This document shows positions 5,077 through 54,319 of a DNA stretch of 64,000 bases, in pieces. A program made the translations under genes and the position numbers. Position 1 is the first letter of the stretch. The number at the start of each line of letters is the position of its first letter. Source of the DNA: Octopus vulgaris (taxonomy: Eukaryota); NCBI GenBank assembly GCA_951406725.2, contig OX597818.1, positions 18,724,001-18,788,000 on the forward strand. Reading direction: 5' to 3'. The notes below the pieces were generated by a model. It was not told the origin of the DNA, did not search any database, and saw only the letters and a program-made list of their open reading frames with translations.

Positions 5077-5402
<326 letters not shown>

Positions 5403-5542
5403 TACGGAGATGTACTCGCATAGCAAGTAATTTGATCTGAGATCGTGTGCTGAAACGAAAACAATTGCAGCGTGGGAGGTGTTTATAAGCCATTTAAGAA
5501 ACACACAAAAGCCGTTCGATTCACTCCAACATTTAAGTTTAA

Positions 5543-5592
5543 TTTGTCAAAATATTTTCGTCGCTAAAATCCGCGACCTGTTCACTGACAAA
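5543..5592 (-). ncRNA. minimal type I hammerhead ribozyme variant (G3-C8 core)
   Basis: UUUGUCA-GUGAACA-G-GUCGC(loop 8)GCGAC-GAAA-AUAU-UU-UGACAAA. Confidence 0.75.
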
Positions 5593-6560
5593 GTCCGTGC
5601 TGCATCTAAGAAAGTAACAGTTAGTTCGTCATATATACGTATGTACGTATGTATGTGTGTATGTATGCATACATGTGTGTATGTATGTACGTATTCATGT
5701 CCGCACATACGCCTGTGTATGCATGTATGTATGTATGTATGTATATATGTATGTGTGTGTATAAGCACGCACATACACTCTATAAAACATAAAGTTATAA
5801 ACCTGTAGCGATGGATGGATGTAGAGTGACCACTCATCACAACGCTATCAAATTTCAACTCCCTACGGCCGAGGCTAGAAAGTGAATTTATGACGCTTGC
5901 TCACAAGAACTATACCCTAAAATCTATTATCAGATTTTTATCTCTATATCACAGAACTAATGTTTTACTATTGTTCGTATGTATGTATGTATGTGCGTAT
6001 GTATGTATGTATGTATGTATGTATGTATGTATGTATGTATGTATGTATGTATGTACATACGTACGCATGTGCGTATGTATGTATACGCGCCCGTATGCAT
6101 GTGCCCATGTATGTGTGTGTGTACATGTACGTGCGTATGTACGTGTGTATGCCCATACGTAGGTATGTATGTATGTTTGTATTCATGTGCTACGTATGTA
6201 TGTGAGTGTCTAGGAGAATGGGCAGATGTGTCCGTGAGAGTGTGTACATGTGTATGTGTATGTGAACGTATGTCCGTGTACTGGCATGTGTCCGTCCAAG
6301 TTGTGTACATGACTGTTACTTAGCTGAAGGTTGTATACATATTTACATATATGTTTGTATAGACGCACACACATATATATATATGTGTGTGGGTGTGTGT
6401 TTGTTCCTCTCATCGTCGTCTAACCGTGAATGGGTACAACGCCTAGGTGCGACTGTTCGTATCAAACAACGTCTGCTCATACCGTTGTATATAACTGCAC
6501 ATACGCATTGCAACCTGTATGTAAGGACTACAGGTGAAAGGGAGAGAGAGAGAGGGGTGG

Positions 6561-7052
6561 TTATAGAATAGTCCTTCTGAATGGGATCTGGATGTTATTC
6601 CATTCGGACTTTCGGTTGAGAGTAGGTTTGTATTCTTGTATACAAACAGCTTCTGTGACCTGTCTCAACATTGCATCGGTGGGATGTGTAGATAGGATGT
6701 TCAACTTAAGCTCCCCTAAGGATCCCTTGTGGCAGTCTACAGCATGTTGGTAGAAGATGGAGTTTGGCTTCCTTTCAATGTAGTTGTCCAGGTGTTCTTT
6801 GAACCTATCATTGATGCTTCTAGAGGTCTCACCTATGTATGACTCCGGGTTAGCCGCGCAAGCTCCCTCCTGGCACTTAATCTGGTATACAGTGCCCTTG
6901 GTTTTACAATTTACGTGTGGATTTGTCGAACACACTGCACAATTACTCTGACAGGTGATTCTATTAAATGGATATGATCTGCATAATGCCGATTTGATAG
7001 TCCTACCTGTCTTTTCTACAACTTTAACTTTTAGGCCCGTAGTCCTGCGCAC
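6561..7052 (-). CDS. 5'-truncated Penelope-like ORF: Cys-rich linker plus GIY-YIG endonuclease
   Basis: GTVYQIKC...SYIGETSRSINDRFKEH...RQVTEAVCI...LNRKSEW, preceded by C-x3-C-x2-C-x7-C; the track start codon is created by the palindrome centre. Confidence 0.85.
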   Translation of the reverse strand: MRRTTGLKVKVVEKTGRTIKSALCRSYPFNRITCQSNCAVCSTNPHVNCKTKGTVYQIKCQEGACAANPESYIGETSRSINDRFKEHLDNYIERKPNSIFYQHAVDCHKGSLGELKLNILSTHPTDAMLRQVTEAVCIQEYKPTLNRKSEWNNIQIPFRRTIL

Positions 7053-7528
7053 TACGGGCCTAAAAGTTAAAGTTGTAGAAAGACAGGTAGGACTATCAAA
7101 TCGGCATTATCAGATCATATCCATTTAATAGAATCACCTGTCAGAGTAATTGTGCAGTGTGTTCGACAAATCCACACGTAAATTGTAAAACCAAGGGCAC
7201 TGTATACCAGATTAAGTGCCAGGAGGAGCTTGCGCGGTAACCCGGAGTCATACATAGGTGAGACCTCTAGAAGCATCAATGATAGGTTCAAAGAACACCT
7301 GGACAACTACATTGAAAGGAAGCCAAACTCCATCTTCTACCAACATGCTGTAGACTGCCACAAGGATCCTTAGGGAGCTTAAGTTGAACATCCTATCTAC
7401 ACATCCCACCGATGCAATGTTGAGACAGGTCACAGAAGCTGTTTGTATACAAGAATACAAACCTACTCTCAACCGAAAGTCCAGAATGGAATAACATCCA
7501 GATCCCATTCAGAAGGACTATTCTATAA
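7051..7528 (+). pseudogene. inverted copy of the GIY-YIG ORF with multiple 1-bp indels
   Basis: Reverse complement of 6561-7043 with mostly homopolymer deletions (AAAA>AAA, GGG>GG, GGGG>GGG); may be sequencing error. Confidence 0.75.
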
Positions 7529-8507
7529 CCACCCCTCTCTCTCTCCCTTTCACCTGTAGTCCTTACATACAGGTTGCAATGCGTATGTGCAGTTATATAC
7601 AACGGTATGAGCAGACGTTGTTTGATACAGAACAGTCGCACCTAGGCGTTGTACCCATTCACGGTTAGACGACGATGAGAGGAACAAACACACACCCACA
7701 CACATATATATATATGTGTGTGCGTCTATACAAACATATATGTAAATATGTATACAACCTTCAGCTAAGTAACAGTCATGTACACAACTTGGACGGACAC
7801 ATGCCAGTACACGGACATACGTTCACATACACATACACATGTACACACTCTCACGGACACATCTGCCCATTCTCCTAGACACTCACATACATACGTAGCA
7901 CATGAATACAAACATACATACATACCTACGTATGGGCATACACACGTACATACGCACGTACATGTACACACACACATACATGGGCACATGCATACGGGCG
8001 CGTATACATACATACGCACATGCGTACGTATGTACATACATACATACATACATACATACATACATACATACATACATACATACATACATACATACATACA
8101 TACGCACATACATACATACATACGAACAATAGTAAAACATTAGTTCTGTGATATAGAGATAAAAATCTGATAATAGATTTTAGGGTATAGTTCTTGTGAG
8201 CAAGCGTCATAAATTCACTTTCTAGCCTCGGCCGTAGGGAGTTGAAATTTGATAGCGTTGTGATGAGTGGTCACTCTACATCCATCCATCGCTACAGGTT
8301 TATAACTTTATGTTTTATAGAGTGTATGTGCGTGCTTATACACACACATACATATATACATACATACATACATACATGCATACACAGGCGTATGTGCGGA
8401 CATGAATACGTACATACATACACACATGTATGCATACATACACACATACATACGTACATACATATATATGACGAACTAACTGTTACTTTCTTAGATGCAG
8501 CACGGAC

Positions 8508-8557
8508 TTTGTCAGTGAACAGGTCGCGGATTTTAGCGACGAAAATATTTTGACAAA
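8508..8557 (+). ncRNA. minimal type I hammerhead ribozyme variant (G3-C8 core), second copy
   Basis: tttgtca gtgaaca g gtcgc ggatttta gcgac gaaa atat tt tgacaaa. Confidence 0.75.
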
Positions 8558-8634
8558 TTAAACTTAAATGTTGGAGTGAATCGAACGGCTTTTGTGTGTT
8601 TCTTAAATGGCTTATAAACACCTCCCACGCTGCA

Positions 8635-8686
<52 letters not shown>

Positions 8687-11600
8687 TATATATATATTTG
8701 CCTATTTGTAATGCAAATTCTTGCATTCCATCTACCTCACTAAATTCATATCGCTCTCACTCTTCTCATCTCTCAACACGGTTAAGCATTAAACTCATAC
8801 TCTTTATTACACCATCCTGACATTATTGATATCTCGTCGTTTAGTTAATATTAGTTTATCGCAGTGCTATAAACTATATCTAACTCCAAAGACGCCATTC
8901 TCACAATGTAACCATATTGCTTGAGATACACCAACGCATTCTAGCTAGAAGATATCTTTAAATATTTCAGACAATATTTAGCTCTGTACAGCAAGTATGA
9001 AATGATAATCTAATGTAATTTCATGGCAAGTTTCAATCTCCATACAACTAATTTTACTTCGCTGATGCAATTATTTTGCATCGGTGAAAAACATGAGTAT
9101 CATAATCTGAGATAATACAGTCCCTCTGAAAATCTTTGTCTTATTTAGGAATAGCAGCACCAAAGTAATTTCTTTCTTTTTTGTCTGAGGGCGTTTAATT
9201 GAGGTGAATATCTCTGAGTTTTAGTTGTTCTCTTTTCTTCTTGTCGCTATATATTTGTGTTAGTTTTACTGCCCTTAGAAATAGGTAGAAACATTTGTAT
9301 GTGGTGTACGTCCATTCCACCAGCAGCTAGACATATTTACCCAACAGCTGTATTTGCCATTATTTCTTGATGTCAAATAGATTTGCCAACAAGAATTGTT
9401 GTGTTTGGGCGAAATCTACTCATTTGAAAAACTTTTGTCTGACATTCTATAACAACATATGCAGCCAACCATTGAATGCGTAAGTCTGGTGGGAGATTTC
9501 CCCTCTTTACCTCCGCTACTTAACCATCTTAGTAATAAGAATGGCAAAAAACCTATGGAATATCAGTGTCTATTCAGACACTTTCTCCGACAAGCAAGTG
9601 TTATGGTTATGCTTCTTAGCATGCCTTTCTGAAATGATTCTCACTTCTACAGGCCCATATCGTCTGGTGTGAATGATGAAAATCACGTCTCTCGATCTGC
9701 CGGAACTTCTCTGCCCACCTACTCTTCATCCATTTGAATTGATTCATTACTGCCCTGCTGTTCACGCGTTCCGTCATATCGGGAGTTGGGAAACGATTTT
9801 TTTATCTGGAAAACTGTAAAACGGACTTCTTTACCGCCTTCAATTTTCTGCTTGTATTTTAGGATGCCATGTTTAAATCTGCAGGTAGCTCTGACAAAAC
9901 AAATATACAACTTAAAAGGCAATTGTGACGTTATTGTTATACTGGTCAATATAGTACTCGTTGTCGCTATTATTCCATTAATTGTCGCTGTTGTTGTTAA
10001 TGCTGCTGTTTCCCGTTTCTGGCGGCCATGATGGATGTAACGATGGCGATTGTTCTGATGCTAGTGTTCTTTACGCACCATTTCCATCCGGGGAAGCACC
10101 ATTCTGCTTATTGCTCCGCGTAGCATCCACATTGGCCATGGTTGTACTAATGTTGTTATTCGTGGTGGTCTTACTGTTACTACTGGTGATGATGATGATG
10201 GTAGTGGTGGTGGTGGTGATAACACAAGAAAAGTCAACAAAATATACTGATAAATTATTAACAGTTTGCCTATGAAATGCCTGAACAAAATGAAAATGAA
10301 ATGCATGGAACAAAGAGAAGATGAAGTCAAATGTGATGTACTCTAAAGTACAGAATAGCACCAGGAACAGCAAGAGGTGGCCTGTAACAGTAATTAGCGA
10401 CTATAAATAGTTCAAATTAAGGATTTTGTTGCGAAGAAAGGGAAAAGCGTAAGGTTTCAGGCAGTAAGTACATACATATTGTCGGAGTGCGATGTTTGAT
10501 GATCATACTGAATAAGTACCAAATATTCTCAGTATCAAAAAGAGTACTGACTGAAGTCTTTCTTACGTGCTTCGTCTTCCTCACGGAATTAATTTTTTAC
10601 TTCCCTTTGATTTGTTTATATTAAACCAATTGTAATTTGTTGTTTAAATTAAAGAAAGATTGAAATTAAAGACAAGTGAGCCAGATACTTGGAGACGAAT
10701 AAATAATGATGTTAATATATAGAGATGTAAACATTAAGTTAATTTGCTTACAGAAATTAACGGTTAGAGTGATATGTATTGATGTAAACAGTGTTGGGGA
10801 AGAATGGTTACAGAAGTACAAAGTCCGTTACATATAAAAGCAGATGTGAAATATGAGCTTTTAATGATACAGACGTGAACAATTTGAAAAGTAAGATGTG
10901 AACGCACGGGAAATTATACATGCATAGGTAAACAGTAAATGAAAAATGTCTAGAAATGTTAACAGCTGGGAAGATAAACATACATATCTGAACAGCTGTA
11001 TGGAGTATATGTATGAATGTATGTATGTTTGTGTGTCTGTGTGTGTGTGTGTGTGTGGGGGGGTTATCGTCATCTTTTGTTCTCTTTCTCCATTCCTTTT
11101 CATACCGAAGCGTCTGGTTGTATTTTCTCGTCTCCCACTTTTCGCTATGTTCTGTCCTTCTCTTTCTAATCCTTTAGGCTATTCCTCTTGGCGTTAACCA
11201 TATTTTCGTCTCCTGTCTGACCCTAAGTCCGTATTCTGTTTATTTATTTCAGTTTGTTCGTATGTCTTGCTTGTTTTCGTCTTTGTACCTCGTCTCCACT
11301 AATGGTCTCATCTTGAATCACATTTATTCACGTTTGTATGTTCACTTTCTGTATTACATATCTGTTAATTTTTTGTTTGTTTGTTCACTTTCTGTCAAGC
11401 TTGGTCCCTTGTTTGTTGGCTCACCATTTTCCAGCGGCTTCTTGCAGCCGGCGCCACCAGAAGGGAGCCAATATTATCATTGAAGGGGCAAAATTCCGTT
11501 TGACTCTCTGGTCGATAACTGAAGAAGATTGTGTTTATTCCTCATCGTTCAAGCGGTGTGAGATCGTGCGTTATCTTGCTGCAGACGAACTCATTTTCTG

Positions 11601-23292: not shown

Positions 23293-23690
23293 ATAAGTTA
23301 ATTTTGGGGCTCAAAAAGCAAAAAGCAAGGCCATGTAGGGGGACATGGAGTTATGTAAAGGGAGGGTGCTCATGCAAAGAGTTCAGGCCATTTCTGGTCA
23401 AGAGAGACTTTGAACCGAGCGGTCGCCGGCATCTTCACCATCTCGTCCGGCAGCTTATTCCACGGATCCGCAACCCGGACGGAGAAAGCCCCTCTTCTTC
23501 GATTGAGATGAAATCGTCGCAGATAGAGCTTTTCGGAGTGAAACCGCAGCCGACGCTCTGGAGCAGGAGTGAAGAACAGCTCTTTCGAGAGGTTACACTT
23601 TCCGCTTATGATGATGTGAGCGAGAATGAGATCACCACGGCGTCGTCGTTTTTCTAGAGAATAAAGGTCGAGCGTCTTCAGCCTGACAGT
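23293..23690 (-). mobile_element. CR1-like LINE 3' fragment
   Basis: Minus strand reads HLNRRRGAFSVRVADPWNKLPDEMVKMPATARFKVSLDQKW, matching the CR1 ORF2 C-terminal FS.RV...WN.LP...FK..LD motif. Confidence 0.8.
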
Positions 23691-24312
23691 GATCAGTTCG
23701 CAAATGGTGCAACAAAAATTGTGACACCAAGTAATAAATGTTTAAGTGAACTTAGACGTTTTTTATCCGTTTTATTTTCTCTTTTTTTGAGGTAGCTAAT
23801 ATGTGTCATGCATGCTGTAATTGTTTTAGCATCAACACACAGTCTCAGATCAAATCAGTTTGGCAGGCAATTACATCTCCTAAATTCACTTTAGTCTATT
23901 GCAAAAAAGAAGACATGTTTACATCAACCTAATTCTCGAGCTTGCGTTATACCGAGTATGGCTAATTATATATTCATTGGACTTTGATATTTTGTTAGAA
24001 TAATCTGAAATTCCGATAATTGATGTTCAGATAACCGATCGCCAATTATCTTAATTAATTATGTACCAACAGAATACATAATTTATGAAACGAATTAACC
24101 GGCAAAAGTGCACAGATAAAAATTCCGTATAATATATAGTCATATATTATTGTCTAAACATGTTAAATCAAAAATATATACATGCAAAAATGCAACTAAA
24201 TATATAGTTTCTATTGTATATACATATTCCCGGCTCATATGCATACACACACACACCATACACGCGCGCACATGCACGCACGCACATGCACGCACGCACA
24301 CACGCACATGAG

Positions 24313-25730: not shown

Positions 25731-28700
25731 AATAAATAAATAAATAAACGTAAACAGGTTTGACCTTTTACTGACCATTAACGTCCTTTGTCTCCATCTA
25801 CCGTGGCTATTTATAGACCCAAAGAACATGAATTCTTTAACCACCCATTCTCCAACACAATGGAGTGTTGATGGTGGCTGTGGCTACACATAAAACAATG
25901 TCATTGAAGATGATGATGGTGATGGTGATGTTGCTGATGATGGTGATGGTGGTGAAGATGATAGTAATAACAATAATAACTGACAGATCCCGTCTTTTTC
26001 CCTTTCTTTTCGTTTCCTTCTCCGTATTTTATTCTCATTATTTCGAACTAATACAGACACAGTAAGCCTTGAAGAAAGGAAGAGGAGGAAAGGAAAAAAA
26101 AAAAAAAAAAAAAAATGTCCGGAGATAAAACTATCAACAAAAAAAATACAGACGAATATAGATCTGCTAGTCTTAAGAAGCGGCGCTATGAGCAATGCTT
26201 ACACGTAGTGAACCCTAAACTGACAGATCCATCTCCTAATATAAGAATGGATGCTCGTCATGCTTCAAGGTCAACAAATCAAACAATAAACCGCATTGGT
26301 CATTGCGCGGATTACAAAAGACCACGTACCCGAAAATTGAACCAAATCCTGATTGAAAAATCAGTTACTGGATCAAATCTTCCCAACACACAGGAGCTGG
26401 ACGAACCCCACAACCGGAATATTCCAACAGATGGCCATCCATGCTCATCACCAAATAATCAAAAGAAAAAGAAGGAAAAATGGTCTAGGGAAGATAATAA
26501 AGAAGTTCTTGAGGCCTTCTACCATGCCATATATTTCCCCACAGATAAGTCTAGCACTGTACAAGCATACTTAAACTGGAGACAGAAACACCCTGAAGTA
26601 AGACCCTACATAGACAGTAACAAGCTTGCCAATGTTAGAAGAAACATTATAAAAAAGAAATTACTGACTGAAGTAGAGATTGATCAGGTTAGACAAGCAA
26701 TATCGGATAAAATGAACGAAGCTGCAGCTAGAGAAGATAATACAGAGGAAATGATTATAGACCAGCCCAGGGCGGATAAAAACGAAGAGAGGATTGAAAG
26801 AGTTAGTATAAGTGATAGGCAAAGTGAAATACGCCCTGAACCAATCATAAACACTAAGACAGATGAGCATCAAATAGATAAAGAAAGTCACACAAATATT
26901 GACCCAACAGAACTACATGAGCTAAAAAATCAAATCATGATTGAATGGCTGAAAATTAAAGAAACCAGCATGGATGAGCGTGATACACTTCCTAAAATCC
27001 GCAACTCTAACCAAAACATGAAAATAATTGGTAAAATCCGGCTTGCACTTAAGGATATAATTTCAGTTAATGATGTTGATATCACAAACCTCAACCACCT
27101 ATACTATGCATCCGCGAAAATCTCAACGATCCTATGTGGTGTAAAGATTAGAAAACGGCAACAGTCCCACAAAAAGCCTTCTTGGCAAGAGCGTCTGCAA
27201 CAACAAATTAAAATATTTAGATCTGACATTGAATATTTGAAAAACCTTAAGGCTCACAAGATTACCAAACCTACAAAAACCCAAAAATTACTGAAAAAAT
27301 ACAATATGAAAACTATACTTGATATTGATGCCACCATAGAAACCATCAAAGAAAAGGTATCTGCCAAAGCTGCCCGCATAGCGAGGTATGAAAAGCGTGT
27401 TAGATTTTTCAAGGACAACAACATGTTCAAAAATAACACCAAGAATTTTTACAGGAAGATAGGAAAAACAGCGTTTACTGCAGGGTCTGTACCATCAAAA
27501 GAAGAAGTGCAGAGATTTTGGAATAAAATCTGGGCAGAAGAAAAAACACACAACGAAAAGGCCCCCTGGATTGACAGAATATCTACAGAACTGGACCCCT
27601 TAGAAGAGCAAAAGTGGGAGGGTGTCAAGGTAGAAGATATAAGATCTGCTCTCAGGAGGTCAAGCAAATGGAAGTCTCCAGGAAAGGATAAAATTCCTAA
27701 CTTCTGGCTGAATGCCTTCCCAGAGAGCCATGAACTGCTAACAGAACTGTACAATGATGTTTTGCAACACCCTAGTAGGATGCCTCCTTGGCTAGTTAAT
27801 GGGTTAACATTCCTGCTTCCAAAAAGTGAAGAAACAAATGAACCAAAAAACTATAGACCCATAACTTGCTTAACAACTATGTACAAAACACTAACATCTG
27901 TCCTGACGGAATATACCTATAGTTTTTTAACAGACAGCAGCATATTCCCTAATGAACAGAAAGGATGTAAACGTGGATCCTACGGCTGTAAAGACCAACT
28001 ACTCATCAATAAGATGATCTTAGAAGATTGTCACAAACGACACAAAAACTTATCAATAGCCTGGATAGACTATAAAAAGGCTTTTGATAGCCTACCACAT
28101 AGCTGGATTAGAAAATGCCTTGAAATGTATAAGATAGCACCAACTCTGCGAAACTTCTTGACTGTAAGTATGAGATCATGGAGAACCACACTAACTCTGA
28201 ACAGTGACAGTGAATTCCTAAATGCTGGTGATGTAAAAATTTCGTGTGGCATTTTCCAGGGTGACTCACTGTCACCACTCCTCTTTTGTTTATCCTTAAT
28301 ACCTCTCTCAAAGCTGCTCAATGACGCGCAGTACGGGTATAAAATGTTTGATAAAAATATAAATCATCTCGTTTACATGGATGATTTAAAGCTTTTTGCA
28401 AAAAATGATCAACAACTCAAGGGCTTACTAGCGATAGTCAAACAATTCAGTGACGACATCAGAATGCAATTCGGCCTCGATAAATGTGCAAAGGCTACCT
28501 TTATCAAAGGAAAAATGACAGAAACATCTAACGTTAACCTTGACCAACAGAATGTCATAAAAGAACTAGACCCAGCGGAGAGCTACAAGTACCTAGGGAT
28601 AATTGAAGGGAACGGAATAAGGCATTCAGAGATGAAGGAAAGGATCAGGAGAGAATGCTATCGAAGAGTGAGAGCAATACTCAAGACAGAGCTGAATGCA

Positions 28701-29957
28701 AGAAACAGGATCGAAGCAATCAATGCATTAGCTATACCAGTCGTGACTTACAGTTTCAATATTGTTAACTGGTCAATTACTGAAATATGTCAGCTCGACA
28801 GAAAAATAAGGAAACTGTTGACAATGCATAGAATGCACCACCCTAAGGCAGATACAGAACGACTCTATCTGCCAAGAAAAGAGGGAGGCCGTGGTCTTTT
28901 GCAACTGGCAATAACAATGAAGATTGCTACAATTGGCCTAGACACCTACCTGAAAAACTCTGAGGACTGGATGCTAAAACTTGTCTCAAAACATGAAAAC
29001 AAGAAAGCATCATACTCAGTCACAAAACAGGCAAAGGAATATCTAAGTGAATTCCGAATACAACCAATTTCGGAGATAGATATACAAGAAACAAGCACAG
29101 AAAAAGCTAGGCGCATGAAAACCCGTGCCAAAACTGCGGCCTTAGATATTCTGAATAATAAATGGCAAGAAAAACCTCTCTATGGCAAATACCCAAAGAG
29201 AGCGAATAATGCAGATATCGACAAAGCCCTGACCCATCAATGGCTAATGGCCTCTGGCTTAAAATCTGAAACAGAGGGGTTTATCATAGCAGCTCAAGAT
29301 CAATGCCTACCAACAAGAAACTACCAGGCCAACATATTAAAGATCAGAAGCAGTCCAACGTGTCGTGTATGCAAGCAACAAAATGAAACCATTGACCATG
29401 TGGTCTCCAAGTGCAGTCTTCTAGCGCCTACAGAGTATCTCAACAGGCACGATAGAGCTGCACAATATATTCACTGGGTAATCTGTAAAAACCTGGATTT
29501 GCCCCATGAAAAAAACTGGTGGGAACACAAACCACCCCCAGTGCTTGAAAATGACCACATCTCACTCCTCTGGAACTTCACCATTCAAACTGACAGGAAG
29601 ATAGATGCAAATAGGCCAGACATCATATTGAAAAACTTCAAACAAAGAACATGCCTCCTCATTGATATGACTGTCCCAATCGATATAAACGTATCTGTCA
29701 AGACCTACCAAAAACTGAGCAAATATAAAGATCTTGAAATAGAAATCAGCAAAATGTGGAAGCTGAAGACTAAAACAATACCTGTTGTCATAGGTGCCCT
29801 GGGAATGATAGCAAAAGGGGCTGATAGCTACCTAACTCAGATACCAGGAAACCCAAAAATGGCAGAAGTTCAAAAGATAGTGCTCATGGGAACTGCTCAT
29901 ATCCTACGCAAAATACTCTCTATGTAATCTCAAGGTTTAAAACAAACATAATTTTCG

Positions 29958-30258: not shown

Positions 30259-32886
30259 AGTTAGATTCTTCAGGGAGAACAGCATGTACAAAAATAACCG
30301 AAAATATTTTTACATGAGGATAGGGAAAATATCAGTTATAGTTAAGTCTGTCCCATCAAAAGTAGTTCAGGAATTTTGTAGTAAAATTTGGGCAGAAGAA
30401 AAAGCACACAATGAAAAGGCCCCTTGGATTGATAGAATATCTACAGACTTAGATTCCTTACACGAGCAAAAGTGGGAGTGTATCAAGGTAGAGGATGTAA
30501 GATCTGCTCTCAGGAAATGAAGCAAATGGAAGTCTCCAGGAAAGGATACAATACTTAAATTCTGGTTGAATACCTTCCCAGAGAGCCATGAACTGCTAAC
30601 AAAACTTTACCACAATTTTTTGCAACAACATAGAGTGATTTTCTCTTGGCTAGTTAATGGTGTAACATGAAGAAACAAATGAACCAAAAAATTATGGAAC
30701 CATAACCTGCTTAACAGCAATGTATAAAACGCTAACATCTGTCTTGTCTGAACATACCTATAGTTTTTTTAATAGAAAGTGGCATATTCCCTAATGAGCA
30801 CGAAGGATGTAAACGTAAGTTTTGTGGTTGTAAAGATCAGCTACTCATCGATAAGATGATCTTGGAAGATTGTCACAAACGACACAAAAATTTGTCGATA
30901 GCCTGGATAGACAACAAAAATGCTTTTGATAGTCTACCACATAGCTGGATTAAGAAACGTCCGGAAATGTATAAAATAGTACCTACTTAGCGAAACGTCT
31001 TGTCTGTAAGTATGAGATCATGGACTTTAAACAGTGACAATGAATCTCTTAACGCTGTAGATGTAAGAATTTCATTTGGCATGTTCCAGGTAGACTTTTT
31101 ATCATCACTCCTCTTTTGTCTAGCCTTAATACCTCTCTCGAAATTGCTCGATGATGTACAATACGGCTATAAAATGTTTGATAAAAATATAAATCGTTTC
31201 ATTTACATGGATGATTTCAAGCTCATTGCACAAAATGACCAGCAACTATAGGGTTTGCTAGCGATTGTTAAACAATTCAGTGATGACTTCAGGATGCAAT
31301 TTGGCTTCGATAGATGTGCAAAAGCTACTTTTATCAAATGAAAAATGACAGAAATATCCATTGTTAATCTTGACCAGCAGAATGTCATAAAGAATGTTTG
31401 AAGGGGGCGGAATCAAACATTCAGTGATAAGATCAGAAGAGAATGTTATCGCAGGGTAAGGGCAATACTCAAGACAGGACTGAATGCAAGAAATAGAATC
31501 GGAGCGATCAATACTTTAGCCATACCGGCCGTGACTTACAGTTTTAATATAATTAACTGGTTAGTTACTGAAACATGTAATCTCGACAGAAAAATACGAA
31601 AATTGTTGACAATGCATAGAATGCATCACCCTAAGCCAGATACAAAACGACTTTATCTGTCAAGAAAAGAGCGAGGCCGTGGACTTTTACAGCTGGAATT
31701 AACAATGAAGACTGCCAAAATTGGCCTAAACATCTACCTGAGACACTCTGATGACTGGATGTTAAAACTTGTCTCAAAGCATAAAAACAAGAAAGCATCA
31801 TTCTCAGTGACAAAACAGGCAAAAGAATATCTAAGTGAATTCCAAATACGACAACTTCCTGAGTTAGACGTACTAGAGACAAGCAGAGAAAAAGTTAAGC
31901 GTATGAAAGCCCGTGCTAAAACTGCTGCCTTAGATATTCTTTCTGATTAATGGTAAGAAAAACCTCTCAATGGCAAATACCCAAAGAGCTAATAGTGCCG
32001 ATGTTGACAAAGCCTTTACCTATCAATGGTTATTGTCTTCTGGCTGAAAATCAGAAACAGAAGGGTTTATCATAGCAACACAAGATCAATGCTTACCTAC
32101 AAGAAACTATCTGGCCGATATATTAAAGAACGGCAGTAGTCTAATATGTGTATGTCATCAACAAAATGAAACCATTGCTCATGTTGTCTCCATGTGCTGT
32201 CTTGCACCTACAGAATATCTCAGCATGCATGATAGAGCTGGGTAGTTTGCAAAAACCTGAACCTGCTCCATGATAAAAAAATGGCAGGAACACAAACCAT
32301 CTCCAGTACTTGAAAATGATCACATCCGACTCCTCTAGAATTTCACCATTCAAACTGACAGAAAGATAGGCCATGCATATAGGCCAGACATTATATTGAA
32401 ACACTTTAGACAAAAATCATGCCTCCTCATTTATATAACTGTCCCAGTCGACATAAATGTATCTGTCAAGACCTACCAAAACCTGAGCAAGTATGAAGAT
32501 CTTGAAATAGAAATTGGCAAAATGTGGAACCTCAAGACTAAAACAATACCTGTTGTCATAGATGTCTTAGGAATGATAGCAAAAAGGGCAAATTCCTACC
32601 TAGCTCTGTTACCAGGAAACCCCAAAATGGCAGAAATTCAAAAGCGAGTGCTCATAGGAACTGCCCATATCCTACGTAAAATACTATCTATGTAATCTCA
32701 AATTCTAAAACAAACTCATAACTTTCTTATGTTTTCTTAAACCTTCTCTAGAACAATACTATGAGCAAAAACCAAATATACGACCCTCTAGGCATAACTC
32801 CAATATGAAATTCCAACTTGTTGGCTCTTGAGGTCTCTGGGTGAGACTTGGAGTCAACTTGTACGAATACAAAGCAAATGTCAAAC

Positions 32887-37979: not shown

Positions 37980-39322
37980 TTTACTTTTAATCTGCATGTT
38001 TGTTACAGTCACTTGCTGAGACACACTCGGCGTCCTGGGGTGAGTGAAGAATAAGAATTGTTACAGTATAACTGAAAGCTTGGGGAGGGGAAGTAGTGAA
38101 ATATATTCATGTAATACAGCAAAGACATTTAAATGGATAGGGAATTTCTAAGGATGTGTGCAGTACTTGTTAGTACAATCTTTTGGATTTCTCTGAAACA
38201 TGGTTCTCCTGGGACATTATCTCCATGTTCTGACATAATTTTTTGTTATCATACCTAGAGTGCCTACAGTAACAAGAAAAGTTCTCGCCTTAAGATGCCA
38301 CATCTTTTGTATTTCAAGTTTCAGGTGCATATATTCACTTAGTTTGTCAAATTCCTTCACGGATGTATTTTTATCAGCGGGAACACCTACATCTATTAGT
38401 CTACAAGTATTTTCTTCCCTGTCTTTAATAATTATGTCTGGTCGGTTAGCCTGGATCGTTCTGTCACTGTTGAATGGAAAATCCCGGAGGATAGAGACAT
38501 TTTTACCTTCAACGACTGGCTCAGGATGATGTTCAGACTAGTAAGTAGCAGTGCTGATTTTGTAGTGTCTGCATATTTTCCAATGTAAATACTGTTCTAC
38601 CCTATCGTGGCGATTTTTGTATTCGTTTGGTGTCGGCACAGGACATCCCGAGACAAGATGGTCTACTGTTTAGTCAAATGTGTCGCAGAATCTGCATTTG
38701 GGGTCAGTTTTTTGTGAGCAAGCTTTGATCTTGTGCTGCCAATATGAACGTTCACTCTCTGCTTTCAGTCCTGAACTTCTCAGCCACTGATGGATTGTTG
38801 CTAGATCTACAATCAGCATTTCGAATTCGAAGTATATTCTGTCCATTCAGAGGATTCTGGCCCCACCTGTCCTCAATTTGTTTCTGCCCGTTAATTTTTG
38901 CAGTCTGCTTCATCCGTTTGCTTTTTTAGTGGCAGTGGTTTCAACTATTTCACCATTAACACCAAGTTCCCTTGCAAATTTGCAAGCTTCCTTGACAATA
39001 AAATGTGATCATTTGCTGCTTTCGTTTTTCCTCTGTGCTAGATAAGTACCTGTTCATGGATATTTTAGAGGCCTTATGGCACAGTTCCACCTGCATTATT
39101 CCACTTCCCCCATTACTTCTAGGTTGGTACAGACGATCAACGTCTACTTTCGGGTGGTGCATATTCTTAGAAGTTAGTAGTTTTCTTGTCCTCCCGTCCG
39201 GGCTTTGGAGCTCCGTAAGATTCCAGTTAATGATGTTAAAACTATATTGGACTACTGGAAGTGCCAGGGTGTTAATGGCTTCGATGCGATTTTTAGACGT
39301 GAGTTCAGTTTTTAGTATGAGT
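37980..39322 (-). mobile_element. decayed 5'-truncated R4/Dong element between (TTA)n tracts
   Basis: MHHPKVDVDRLYQPRSNGGSG, CRFC...HLVSGC, RHDRV and RPDIII remnants on the minus strand. Confidence 0.85.
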
Positions 39323-45164: not shown

Positions 45165-45169
<5 letters not shown>

Positions 45170-45947
45170 TTTCAACAATTGAGGGTAAAATTAATTAATT
45201 TATCAATTTCACCAAGTATTCAGTATGCAAAGGGACCATTTAAGGCGAATTCAAATTATTACATTATATAAAAGGGCTTAGTAAAATAAATTACTTTCCC
45301 GCATACTTTTTTTTTTTTTTTTTTAGCTGCTATTTCTAATGAGTTCAGTATGCGGCAAAGTAATTTATTTTACTAAGCCCTTTTATATAATGTAATAATT
45401 TGAATTCGCCTTAAATGGTCCCTTTGCATACTGAATACTTGGTGAAATTGATAAATTAATTAATTTTACCCTCAATTGTTGAAATTATAATTCATCTCTC
45501 TCTATTTAATGCCTCGGATTTTACCGAAAAAAGCATGTTGTTTGCTGATTTTAACCCACGCTGGTGGAAGGGGGAGAGCAGAAATTCTTCGCTTGCATAT
45601 TTGAATTTGCTGGCACTGTTAGTTTCGAGTAGATCTTCAGAGGCGATGGGAAGCCGAAAAGGTATGCTCCTACTTTCAGTGTTTTCAAATCCAAACCAGG
45701 GAGTTCTGAGCTGATGATAGAAGTGTCGATTTTGACTAATCTTGAAACGTACGTTCTCAAATAACCTTTGCATTTGATTTTTTAATGTTTCTACCCTCAT
45801 ACTTTCGTGAGTTGAATTGAGCAAACATTATATGAGAGAGATTTTCTTTAAGTATTGGAAATAGTTTTAAAAAGTTTTTTTTAGCTGCTATTTCTAATGA
45901 GTTCAGTATGCGGCAAAGTAATTTATTTTACTAAGCCCTTTTATATA

Positions 45948-53899: not shown

Positions 53900-53998
53900 A
53901 ATACATCAAATGGGAATCTCTACATGCCCCATCTGTATAAATCATAACATTTCTGTTGTGATTCCTGATGGAATTCACTTGGCTCATGTTGCTTCACA

Positions 53999-54319
53999 AT
54001 GAACAGGGCTTATCCGACAGAATGCACGAAACACAACTTGATTTATGTTGGTTGTACAACAGAACAATTTCACAAAAGGTGTAACTGGCACAATAACAGT
54101 AGTTCGACAGAACTTGCTGAACATTTCGTTTCAAGCGGCTGCAATTTTGAAAAAGACTTGAAAGTGAATATTCTCAGAAAATATTCTGAATCTGCTTCAC
54201 TTTCACTTCTCAGAATGCATGAGGAGAAATATGTTTGCGGGTTATTAACATCACGCCCTGGAGGAATGAATAAAATGACAGGAGAATATCATCAAACTTA
54301 TACAAGACTGTTTGATTAA
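53999..54319 (+). pseudogene. GIY-YIG endonuclease remnant of a Penelope-like element
   Basis: AYPTECTKHNLIYVGCTTEQFHKRCNWH...LAEHF...RMHEEKYV...PGGMN; CPIC just upstream in another frame. Confidence 0.75.

What the first reader, a model, noticed from the sequence alone, without database searches (positions are those of the whole stretch)
5403..8639. 3.2-kb near-perfect palindrome formed by two head-to-head Penelope-like 3' halves
Seen: arms of about 1.58 kb separated by only CCTGCGC, both cut at almost the same point of the GIY-YIG-linked ORF, each ending in a hammerhead and then (TA)n. Known: Penelope-like elements often carry an inverted 5'-truncated copy. Unusual here: the inverted part is as long as the direct part, so the whole insertion is one hairpin. 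Inference: the cDNA folded back (the centre holds the short palindrome TGCGCA) and was copied on itself. If transcribed it would give a long dsRNA, an ADAR or small-RNA substrate.
Basis: partly seen in the sequence, partly recalled or inferred. Interest (0 to 1): 0.75.

Follow-up and report, generated by a model that had tools for sequence, protein, structure and literature searches.

The report
Symmetric two-armed Penelope retrotransposon insertion
This 3.2-kb DNA mirror image is a dead, truncated insertion of a young Penelope-type jumping gene laid down as two head-to-head copies, a known layout; its two unequal ends, a rule kept by all 40 two-armed sister copies scored, suggest it was likely copied from both sides of the DNA cut, not by one strand simply copying itself.

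Summary
The palindrome is in the assembly: arms 5461-7043 and 7051-8639, 1574 of 1597 columns identical, 7-nt loop. It is a 5'-truncated, RT-less insertion of a young Penelope-like family (C-terminal GIY-YIG, Neptune/Nematis-type linker, (TA)n target). All 40 two-armed copies scored have one tailed and one untailed end. 10 of 40 are near-symmetric (1.65 expected by shuffling), and two of these carry 12-bp target duplications, which argues against read fold-back artefacts as a class. Best model: two target-primed cDNAs from two fixed start sites, joined head-to-head through the native AGT/ACT microhomology (not TGCGCA); snap-back and co-termination cannot be told apart. Head-to-head Penelope units with one-sided tails and junction palindromes are published, and this scan noted the end rule, double priming and the G3-C8 hammerhead before on other DNA. 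This locus has no read-level confirmation; dsRNA, editing and ribozyme cleavage are untested.

The parts
5363..5402 (.). left (TA)n target tract
5403..5460 (-). 58-nt one-sided tail (long 3' end of the element), absent from the right arm
   Evidence: continuous with pLTR and 5' region in full-length copy L033
5461..7043 (-). left arm (tailed), 5'-truncated element: EN coding remnant plus 3' UTR/pLTR
   Evidence: 99.3% to natural copy L033
5543..5592 (-). minimal hammerhead-like motif with G3-C8 core, left copy
   Evidence: mirror of 8508-8557
6561..7043 (-). open C-terminal 160 codons plus stop: CX3CXXC linker and GIY-YIG endonuclease; no start codon, no RT
7041..7053 (.). centre: native 3-bp stem AGT/ACT closing the 7-nt loop CCTGCGC; junction unique in the assembly
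7041..8639 (+). right arm (untailed, loop-bearing, 10 nt longer at its 5' end)
   Evidence: 98.1% to L033
7041..7528 (+). GIY-YIG coding remnant, frame broken by single-base indels (possibly assembly errors)
8508..8557 (+). minimal hammerhead-like motif: stem I, core GUGAACA, extra G, 5-bp stem II, GAAA, palindromic AAUAUU
   Evidence: z -3.07; 90 of 98 arm copies identical; Rfam none
8640..8697 (.). right (TA)n target tract, followed by flank unrelated to the left flank

Best explanation
This is one non-autonomous insertion of a young endonuclease-bearing Penelope-like retrotransposon, likely made when the element's enzyme nicked both strands of a (TA)n tract and primed two cDNAs on the same element RNA (or sister RNAs), one from a long (tailed) start site and one from a short start site 58 nt inside it. 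Shown: anatomy, family identity, the one-tail/one-no-tail rule, the excess of symmetric centres, the AGT/ACT microhomology. Inferred: the two cDNA 3' ends were joined head-to-head. The arms are equal either because the right-arm cDNA snapped back on AGT/ACT and was extended until it met the left cDNA (about 45%), or because both cDNAs stopped at nearly the same point of one template and annealed through the same 3 bases (about 40%); sequence cannot separate these. The product encodes nothing usable and most likely has no function.
For: Ends: 35 of 35 two-armed insertions with both ends readable had one tailed and one untailed end, then 5 of 5 in loci fetched later; 40 of 40, p 2e-12 against independent choice. 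The longer arm is tailed in 16, untailed in 21, equal in 3, so neither end belongs to a fixed first strand. Symmetry: 10 of 40 have 5' ends within 70 nt (shuffle mean 1.65; without this locus 9 of 39, p 2e-5). Symmetric copies L040 and L044 sit in non-(TA)n DNA with 12-bp target duplications. Arms of one insertion nearly always share their subfamily variants, and here a variant seen in no other sampled locus: same template. Junctions mostly show 1-7 nt overlaps or short templated inserts; short snap-back copies occur in L032, L036, L037, L115. 32 of 34 two-armed copies have (TA)5 at an end. Literature: a purified PLE protein cuts and extends both target strands, starts RT at two sites that bound the tail, and is predicted to be a dimer (PMC11167929, parts 1-2 of 4).
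Against: No long reads were available, so this locus rests on the assembly alone; 8 single-base indels crowd the right arm next to the centre, so the sequence there is probably imperfect. No target duplication can be read inside (TA)n here. The sample is biased: best-scoring hits, two-armed copies have two chances of being picked, and break points were listed by hand from BLAST. 44 of 84 sampled loci were not counted (34 single-armed, 6 old or fragmentary, 4 with one end unreadable). Three counted arms are only 39-126 nt (L080, L091, L102) and L056 is a three-piece insert. The single-armed copies show that second priming is not obligatory. A 3-bp stem with a 3-10 nt loop exists at 11.6% of positions by chance, and this hairpin is not stable on its own (z 0.78). 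The in vitro data come from another clade, and that paper saw no difference in start site between strands, which by itself does not predict the strict rule.
Confidence: 0.8

Rival explanations
1. One reading: one cDNA folded back at the centre and was copied on itself along its whole length.
For: Native 3-bp stem/7-nt loop at the centre; the same geometry at L040 and a native stem with 7-nt loop at L086; one private variant shared by both arms; in the first-search loci arms of symmetric copies differ less than arms of asymmetric ones (3 in 9160 against 16 in 8211 bases, p 0.002; 0.03 after dropping 5 calls beside simple repeats).
Against: The strand that would fold (right arm) lacks the 58-nt tail present on the copy. 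The untailed arm is the longer one in 21 of 40 insertions. Private variants are also shared between arms of asymmetric insertions (L083, L084, L090).
Confidence: 0.06
2. Self-priming on an antisense element RNA gives a hairpin intermediate whose open end is cut by the endonuclease at two staggered sites before integration (after the proposal in PMC3846280).
For: Explains head-to-head orientation and junction palindromes; the tail has been ascribed to EN-mediated resolution (PMC8557442).
Against: A staggered cut of fixed polarity would put the tail always on the longer or always on the shorter arm; observed 16 and 21. Antisense RNA was not examined here.
Confidence: 0.07
3. Artefact: a fold-back long read or misassembly produced the mirror arm.
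For: Fold-back reads are a documented artefact (PMC12870357, abstract and Background). Indel-only differences cluster in one arm; symmetric copies carry more indel sites per kb (0.75) than asymmetric (0.28) or single-armed (0.12) copies of the first search.
Against: A read fold-back would mirror the tail and flank; here the flanks are unrelated and the arms end at two different family-specific sites, as in 39 other insertions. Arms also differ by one substitution and a 12-nt repeat length. Sister palindromes carry 12-bp target duplications.
Confidence: 0.05
4. Two independent insertions in opposite orientation into one (TA)n tract, or a later rearrangement of one copy.
For: The family strongly prefers (TA)n.
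Against: No (TA)n or host DNA between the arms; a shared private variant; strict end rule; no duplicated flank.
Confidence: 0.02

Closest known systems
Insertion unit of EN+ Penelope-like elements: partial tandem, adjacent inverted 5'-truncated copy, one-sided tail (Craig et al. 2021, PMC8557442; passages and section 11 read, supplement listed but not opened)
   Same: Inverted truncated copy at the 5' end, tail at one end only, (TA)n targeting linked to a CX2-5CXXC linker; L033/L106 shows the full textbook unit.
   Different: Tail is 58 nt, not 30-40; here both arms are kb-long and equal; the one-tail rule is counted (40 of 40).
Adineta vaga Penelope copies with palindromes at head-to-head junctions (Arkhipova et al. 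2013, PMC3846280; passages read)
   Same: Head-to-head arrangement, junction palindromes, tail on one inverted pLTR, TSDs of 8-10 bp, self-priming proposed.
   Different: Palindromes named in those passages are 18-38 bp; that paper invokes an antisense template, which the 16:21 arm polarity here does not favour.
Anolis PAc (Poseidon) in vitro mechanism (Frangieh et al. 2024, PMC11167929; parts 1-2 of 4 read)
   Same: Both strands cut and extended, two RT start sites bounding the tail, AT-rich target, predicted dimer.
   Different: Different clade; the parts read do not treat inverted or symmetric insertions, and start-site use did not differ by strand.
[quoted passage not shown]
   Same: Position in the pLTR, extra nucleotide between 9 and 10.1, G10.1-C11.1 pair, short palindromic stem III.
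   Different: Core pair is G3-C8; the parts read report C3-G8 and U3-A8. C3G/G8C is known as a partly active laboratory double mutant.
Drosophila Penelope copies with long inverted repeats that yield siRNAs (PMC3681739; passages read)
   Same: Rearranged copies with long inverted repeats; the model for the dsRNA prediction.
   Different: No RNA evidence for this locus.
Snap-back synthesis-dependent microhomology end joining (PMC5728401, passages read) and L1 twin priming (recalled, not read)
   Same: Short inverted primer repeats, templated inserts and microhomology at junctions; two priming events on two target strands.
   Different: Snap-back synthesis there is non-processive; in L1 twin priming the two pieces cover different parts of the RNA, whereas here both arms copy the same 3' part.

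Membership tests
EN+ Penelope-like element | One ORF with RT and C-terminal GIY-YIG endonuclease | tested here: met
   Sister copies give open frames of up to 777 aa with a YVDD motif and the same EN end; PF01541 above cut-off on the window fragment; best named homologue is annotated as RT-domain protein. Pfam found no family on the L058 frame. This insertion itself lacks RT.
EN+ Penelope-like element | Pseudo-LTR / partial tandem | tested here: met
   L033: 1.1-kb 3' region repeated upstream of the ORF, 98.4%
EN+ Penelope-like element | Adjacent inverted 5'-truncated copy and one-sided tail | tested here: met
   This locus and 39 others; tail 58 nt
EN+ Penelope-like element | Hammerhead in the pLTR | tested here: inconclusive
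   Minimal-hammerhead layout with G3-C8 core; Rfam 0 matches; cleavage untested
EN+ Penelope-like element | Target-site duplication | tested here: inconclusive
   Unreadable in (TA)n here; 12 bp at L040 and L044, 9 bp at L062
Neptune/Nematis clades | CX2-5CXXC linker upstream of GIY-YIG | tested here: met
   C-x3-C-x2-C read in the translation; definition
Neptune/Nematis clades | CCHH motif with two Cys inside the GIY-YIG core | tested here: met
   Two Cys between VYQI and YIGET and downstream His residues, read by eye; not aligned to references
Neptune/Nematis clades | Placement in the RT phylogeny | not tested
   No named reference sequences were held; Neptune versus Nematis is not resolved
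Hydra clade | CxCX5C linker and loss of CCHH | tested here: not met
   Linker is CX3CXXC and core cysteines are present, although RWR and DKS motifs resemble Hydra's RWK and DKT
Naiad/Chlamys | N-terminal endonuclease | tested here: not met
   EN is C-terminal
Non-LTR retrozyme | Non-coding tandem units with one hammerhead each | tested here: not met
   Arms carry ORF remnants and no tandem unit
Long-read fold-back artefact | Both halves map to the same place, ends and flank mirrored | tested here: not met
   Unrelated flanks and different ends; raw reads not seen
Hairpin-RNA / siRNA or ADAR substrate locus | Transcript across both arms, small RNAs or A-to-I edits | not testable with these tools
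   No raw RNA reads could be laid

The most novel reading that the evidence does not exclude
Penelope integration is an obligately asymmetric two-ended reaction: one RNP uses its long start site on one target strand and its short start site on the other, and in about a quarter of two-armed events both cDNAs end together, planting near-perfect 2-5 kb palindromes in one step. An active family would thus keep seeding an octopus-like genome with long hairpins that become dsRNA substrates for ADAR or Dicer wherever they are read through.
Probability: 0.3. Interest if true: 0.6.

Novelty: new member of a known kind. Interest (0 to 1): 0.32.

Why it matters
How Penelope-like elements make their tandem and inverted insertions is named as an open question (PMC8557442). 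This young family gives a countable footprint, 40 of 40 one-tail ends and 10 of 40 symmetric centres, that links the in vitro two-start-site result to genomic products and can be tested with a purified protein. The locus itself is a dead truncated copy of a described layout, and the scan has noted the same rule on other DNA, so the gain is modest.

Tried and rejected
Read support for the junction: Logan short-read contigs of five coded runs were laid on 6980-7660 (X2, X3, X5, X6) and 7008-7084 (X1, X2, X3, X5). No listed piece crossed the centre; both lists were cut (795 and 4 pieces not shown). This is uninformative: contigs drop rare forms, hairpin centres may drop out of short-read libraries, and the insertion may be absent from those animals. 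RNA: no RNA holder listed. Empty allele: not attempted, since (TA)n tracts of about 40-59 nt would likely break such contigs and both lay calls were used. Rfam at gathering score: 0 matches in the window. TGCGCA as primer: rejected, off-axis. Stability of the 3-bp snap-back hairpin: none by folding. Age difference between symmetric and asymmetric copies: none among first-search loci (0.69 against 0.78 private substitutions per kb), so no sign that palindromes are purged faster. Host gene: the ORF list of 110 aa or more showed only repeats and retroelement frames near the locus; short exons would be missed. No family sequence in the 10 kb left of the window (L116). A paper on dimeric PLE hammerheads, looked up by a recalled DOI, is not held, so prior description of a natural G3-C8 core is not excluded (searches). 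Search for PLE twin priming listed 3 papers, none on topic by title and abstract start. Clade tree not built.

Full report
Observation. The window holds a near-perfect inverted repeat: 5461-7043 against 7051-8639, 1574 matches in 1597 columns, one substitution and 22 gap columns, with CCTGCGC between the arms. (TA)n tracts lie on both sides and the flanks beyond them are unrelated. The left arm keeps an open frame for a CX3CXXC linker and a GIY-YIG domain; the right arm has the same sequence with eight single-base indels near the centre. High-depth family contigs carry the left-arm form at those places, so they are either private to this arm or assembly errors.

Family. Searches of G000 returned 219-572 first-look candidates per query, 40 scored each time; these are not copy numbers. 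Top copies are 98-100% identical, so the family is young. I examined 84 loci including this one (L106 is the other end of L033; L116 is only the window's left neighbour). L033/L106 shows the full unit: inverted arm, 1.1-kb pLTR, ORF with RT and C-terminal GIY-YIG, pLTR. The closest named homologue is an Octopus vulgaris RT-domain protein at 57% identity, so the host is probably an octopus (inference). Recently active Penelope-like families are reported for that species (PMC13282606, passages). The linker and core cysteines point to Neptune/Nematis and not to Hydra or Naiad; no tree was built.

The end rule. Element copies end at one of two sites, a short end and a tailed end 58 nt further on. 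Among head-to-head insertions with both outer ends readable, 35 of 35 had one of each, and 5 of 5 in loci fetched afterwards: 40 of 40, p 2e-12 against independent choice. Not counted were 34 single-armed loci, 6 old or fragmentary ones and 4 with an unreadable end. The longer arm was tailed in 16, untailed in 21, equal in 3. 32 of 34 two-armed copies touch (TA)5; the two that do not, L040 and L044, are themselves symmetric palindromes of 4.8 and 3.7 kb with 12-bp target duplications.

Symmetry. The 5' break points of the two arms lie within 70 nt in 10 of 40 insertions (0, 0, 0, 2, 10, 10, 21, 39, 51, 64), against 1.65 when arms are shuffled between insertions; without this locus 9 of 39, p 2e-5. 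The other 30 differ by 177-2796 nt. Equal arms are therefore a recurring sub-class, not unique to this locus. The sample favours young and two-armed copies, and break points were listed by hand, so the fraction is approximate.

The centre. Unrearranged copies read AGT CCTGCGC ACT at this point: the junction uses a native 3-bp inverted microhomology around a 7-nt loop. TGCGCA is off-axis. The loop is antisense on the minus strand, so the strand that could fold back is the right-arm cDNA. That strand starts at the short end and cannot template the tail on the left. The insert therefore needs a second cDNA primed at the tailed site (inference from the sequence). L040 has the same 3-bp/7-nt geometry; other symmetric centres have a small palindrome or templated inserts (L037, L041, L044, L073, L115), and short inverted copies occur at asymmetric junctions (L032, L036). 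Such stems occur at 11.6% of positions by chance, so the stem alone proves little.

Mechanism. A purified PLE protein cuts and extends both target strands, starts reverse transcription at two sites that bound the tail, and is predicted to dimerise (PMC11167929). The simplest reading is two target-primed cDNAs, one per start site, joined at their 3' ends by microhomology. Both arms nearly always share subfamily and sometimes private variants, in symmetric and asymmetric copies alike, so they come from one template or source. Equal arms arise either by snap-back of one cDNA, extended until it meets the other, or by both cDNAs ending at one point of the template; both leave the same junction. Arms of symmetric copies differ less than arms of asymmetric ones of similar age (p 0.002-0.03), which fits snap-back copying but also conversion between arms or assembly polishing.

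Artefact. Fold-back reads exist, and indels are more frequent in the palindromic copies. But an artefact would mirror tail and flank, and would not obey the end rule or leave target duplications. I put it at 5% for this locus, which has no read-level confirmation.

Hammerhead. Each arm carries a minimal type I layout (stem I, seven-base core, extra G, 5-bp stem II, GAAA, palindromic stem III; z -3.07) identical in 90 of 98 arm copies, with G3-C8 in place of C3-G8. Rfam does not detect it. The parts of PMC4209133 read describe C3-G8 and U3-A8 cores; C3G/G8C is a partly active laboratory mutant. Activity is untested; in a read-through hairpin RNA both motifs would be paired shut (inference).

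dsRNA. Long inverted Penelope copies give siRNAs in Drosophila (PMC3681739). Here the pLTRs face outward and no host gene was seen nearby, so a hairpin transcript needs outside read-through; untested.

Novelty. The layout (inverted truncated copy, one-sided tail, head-to-head junction palindromes, self-priming idea) is in print. In the passages read I found no count of the end rule or of kb-scale symmetric centres (searches); supplements of PMC8557442 and PMC4209133 were not opened and may bear on this. Earlier AI notes of this scan report the end rule, double priming and the swapped core in this genome and similar palindromes in other genomes; my counts were made before those look-ups except the last five loci. 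Verdict: real in the assembly, a new member of a known kind, interest 0.32.

Noticed in passing
window 8508-8557 (+) and 5543-5592 (-): Hammerhead-like motif with swapped G3-C8 core pair, identical in 90 of 98 arm copies; not detected by Rfam.
   Followed up: partly
window 26073-29927 (+): Uninterrupted 1284-aa frame with RVT_1 (E 4.8e-27) and weak zf-RVT match: an apparently intact non-LTR retrotransposon; degraded relatives at 31402-32695 and 38956-39321.
   Followed up: partly
window 23811-23880: 70-nt, 77% match to the element's tail region, just beyond an RT-like C-terminal fragment at 23370-23741 (-): an older related end.
   Followed up: no
window 53969-54319 (+): Frame with a YVG-containing GIY-YIG-like stretch, possibly a remnant of another Penelope-like family (read by eye).
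   Followed up: no
window 45165-45489: 143-nt arms, 99% complementary, 39-nt spacer, next to a (TA)n tract: possibly another small head-to-head insertion.
   Followed up: no
L036 6137-6179: 36-nt inverted copy at a junction: either a short snap-back or a perfect palindrome later revised by a one-sided deletion near its centre.
   Followed up: partly
L083 4297 and L086 4278-4293; L041 4914 and L100 6001: Separate insertions share the same 5' break point (reference 5003; reference 5415), suggesting preferred RT stop sites; 5003 lies at a native stem with a 7-nt loop.
   Followed up: no
L033/L106 (G000:C4 about 22.95 Mb): Near full-length unit with inverted arm, pLTR, ORF and pLTR; the 5' part of the ORF has a stop and a frame change as assembled.
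   Followed up: partly
L093/L094, L096/L097, L104/L105: Pairs of loci with the same junctions on one contig: segmental duplications or unmerged haplotypes.
   Followed up: no
L062 6246-6254 and 8195-8203: Single-armed copy in non-(TA)n DNA with a 9-bp target duplication.
   Followed up: partly
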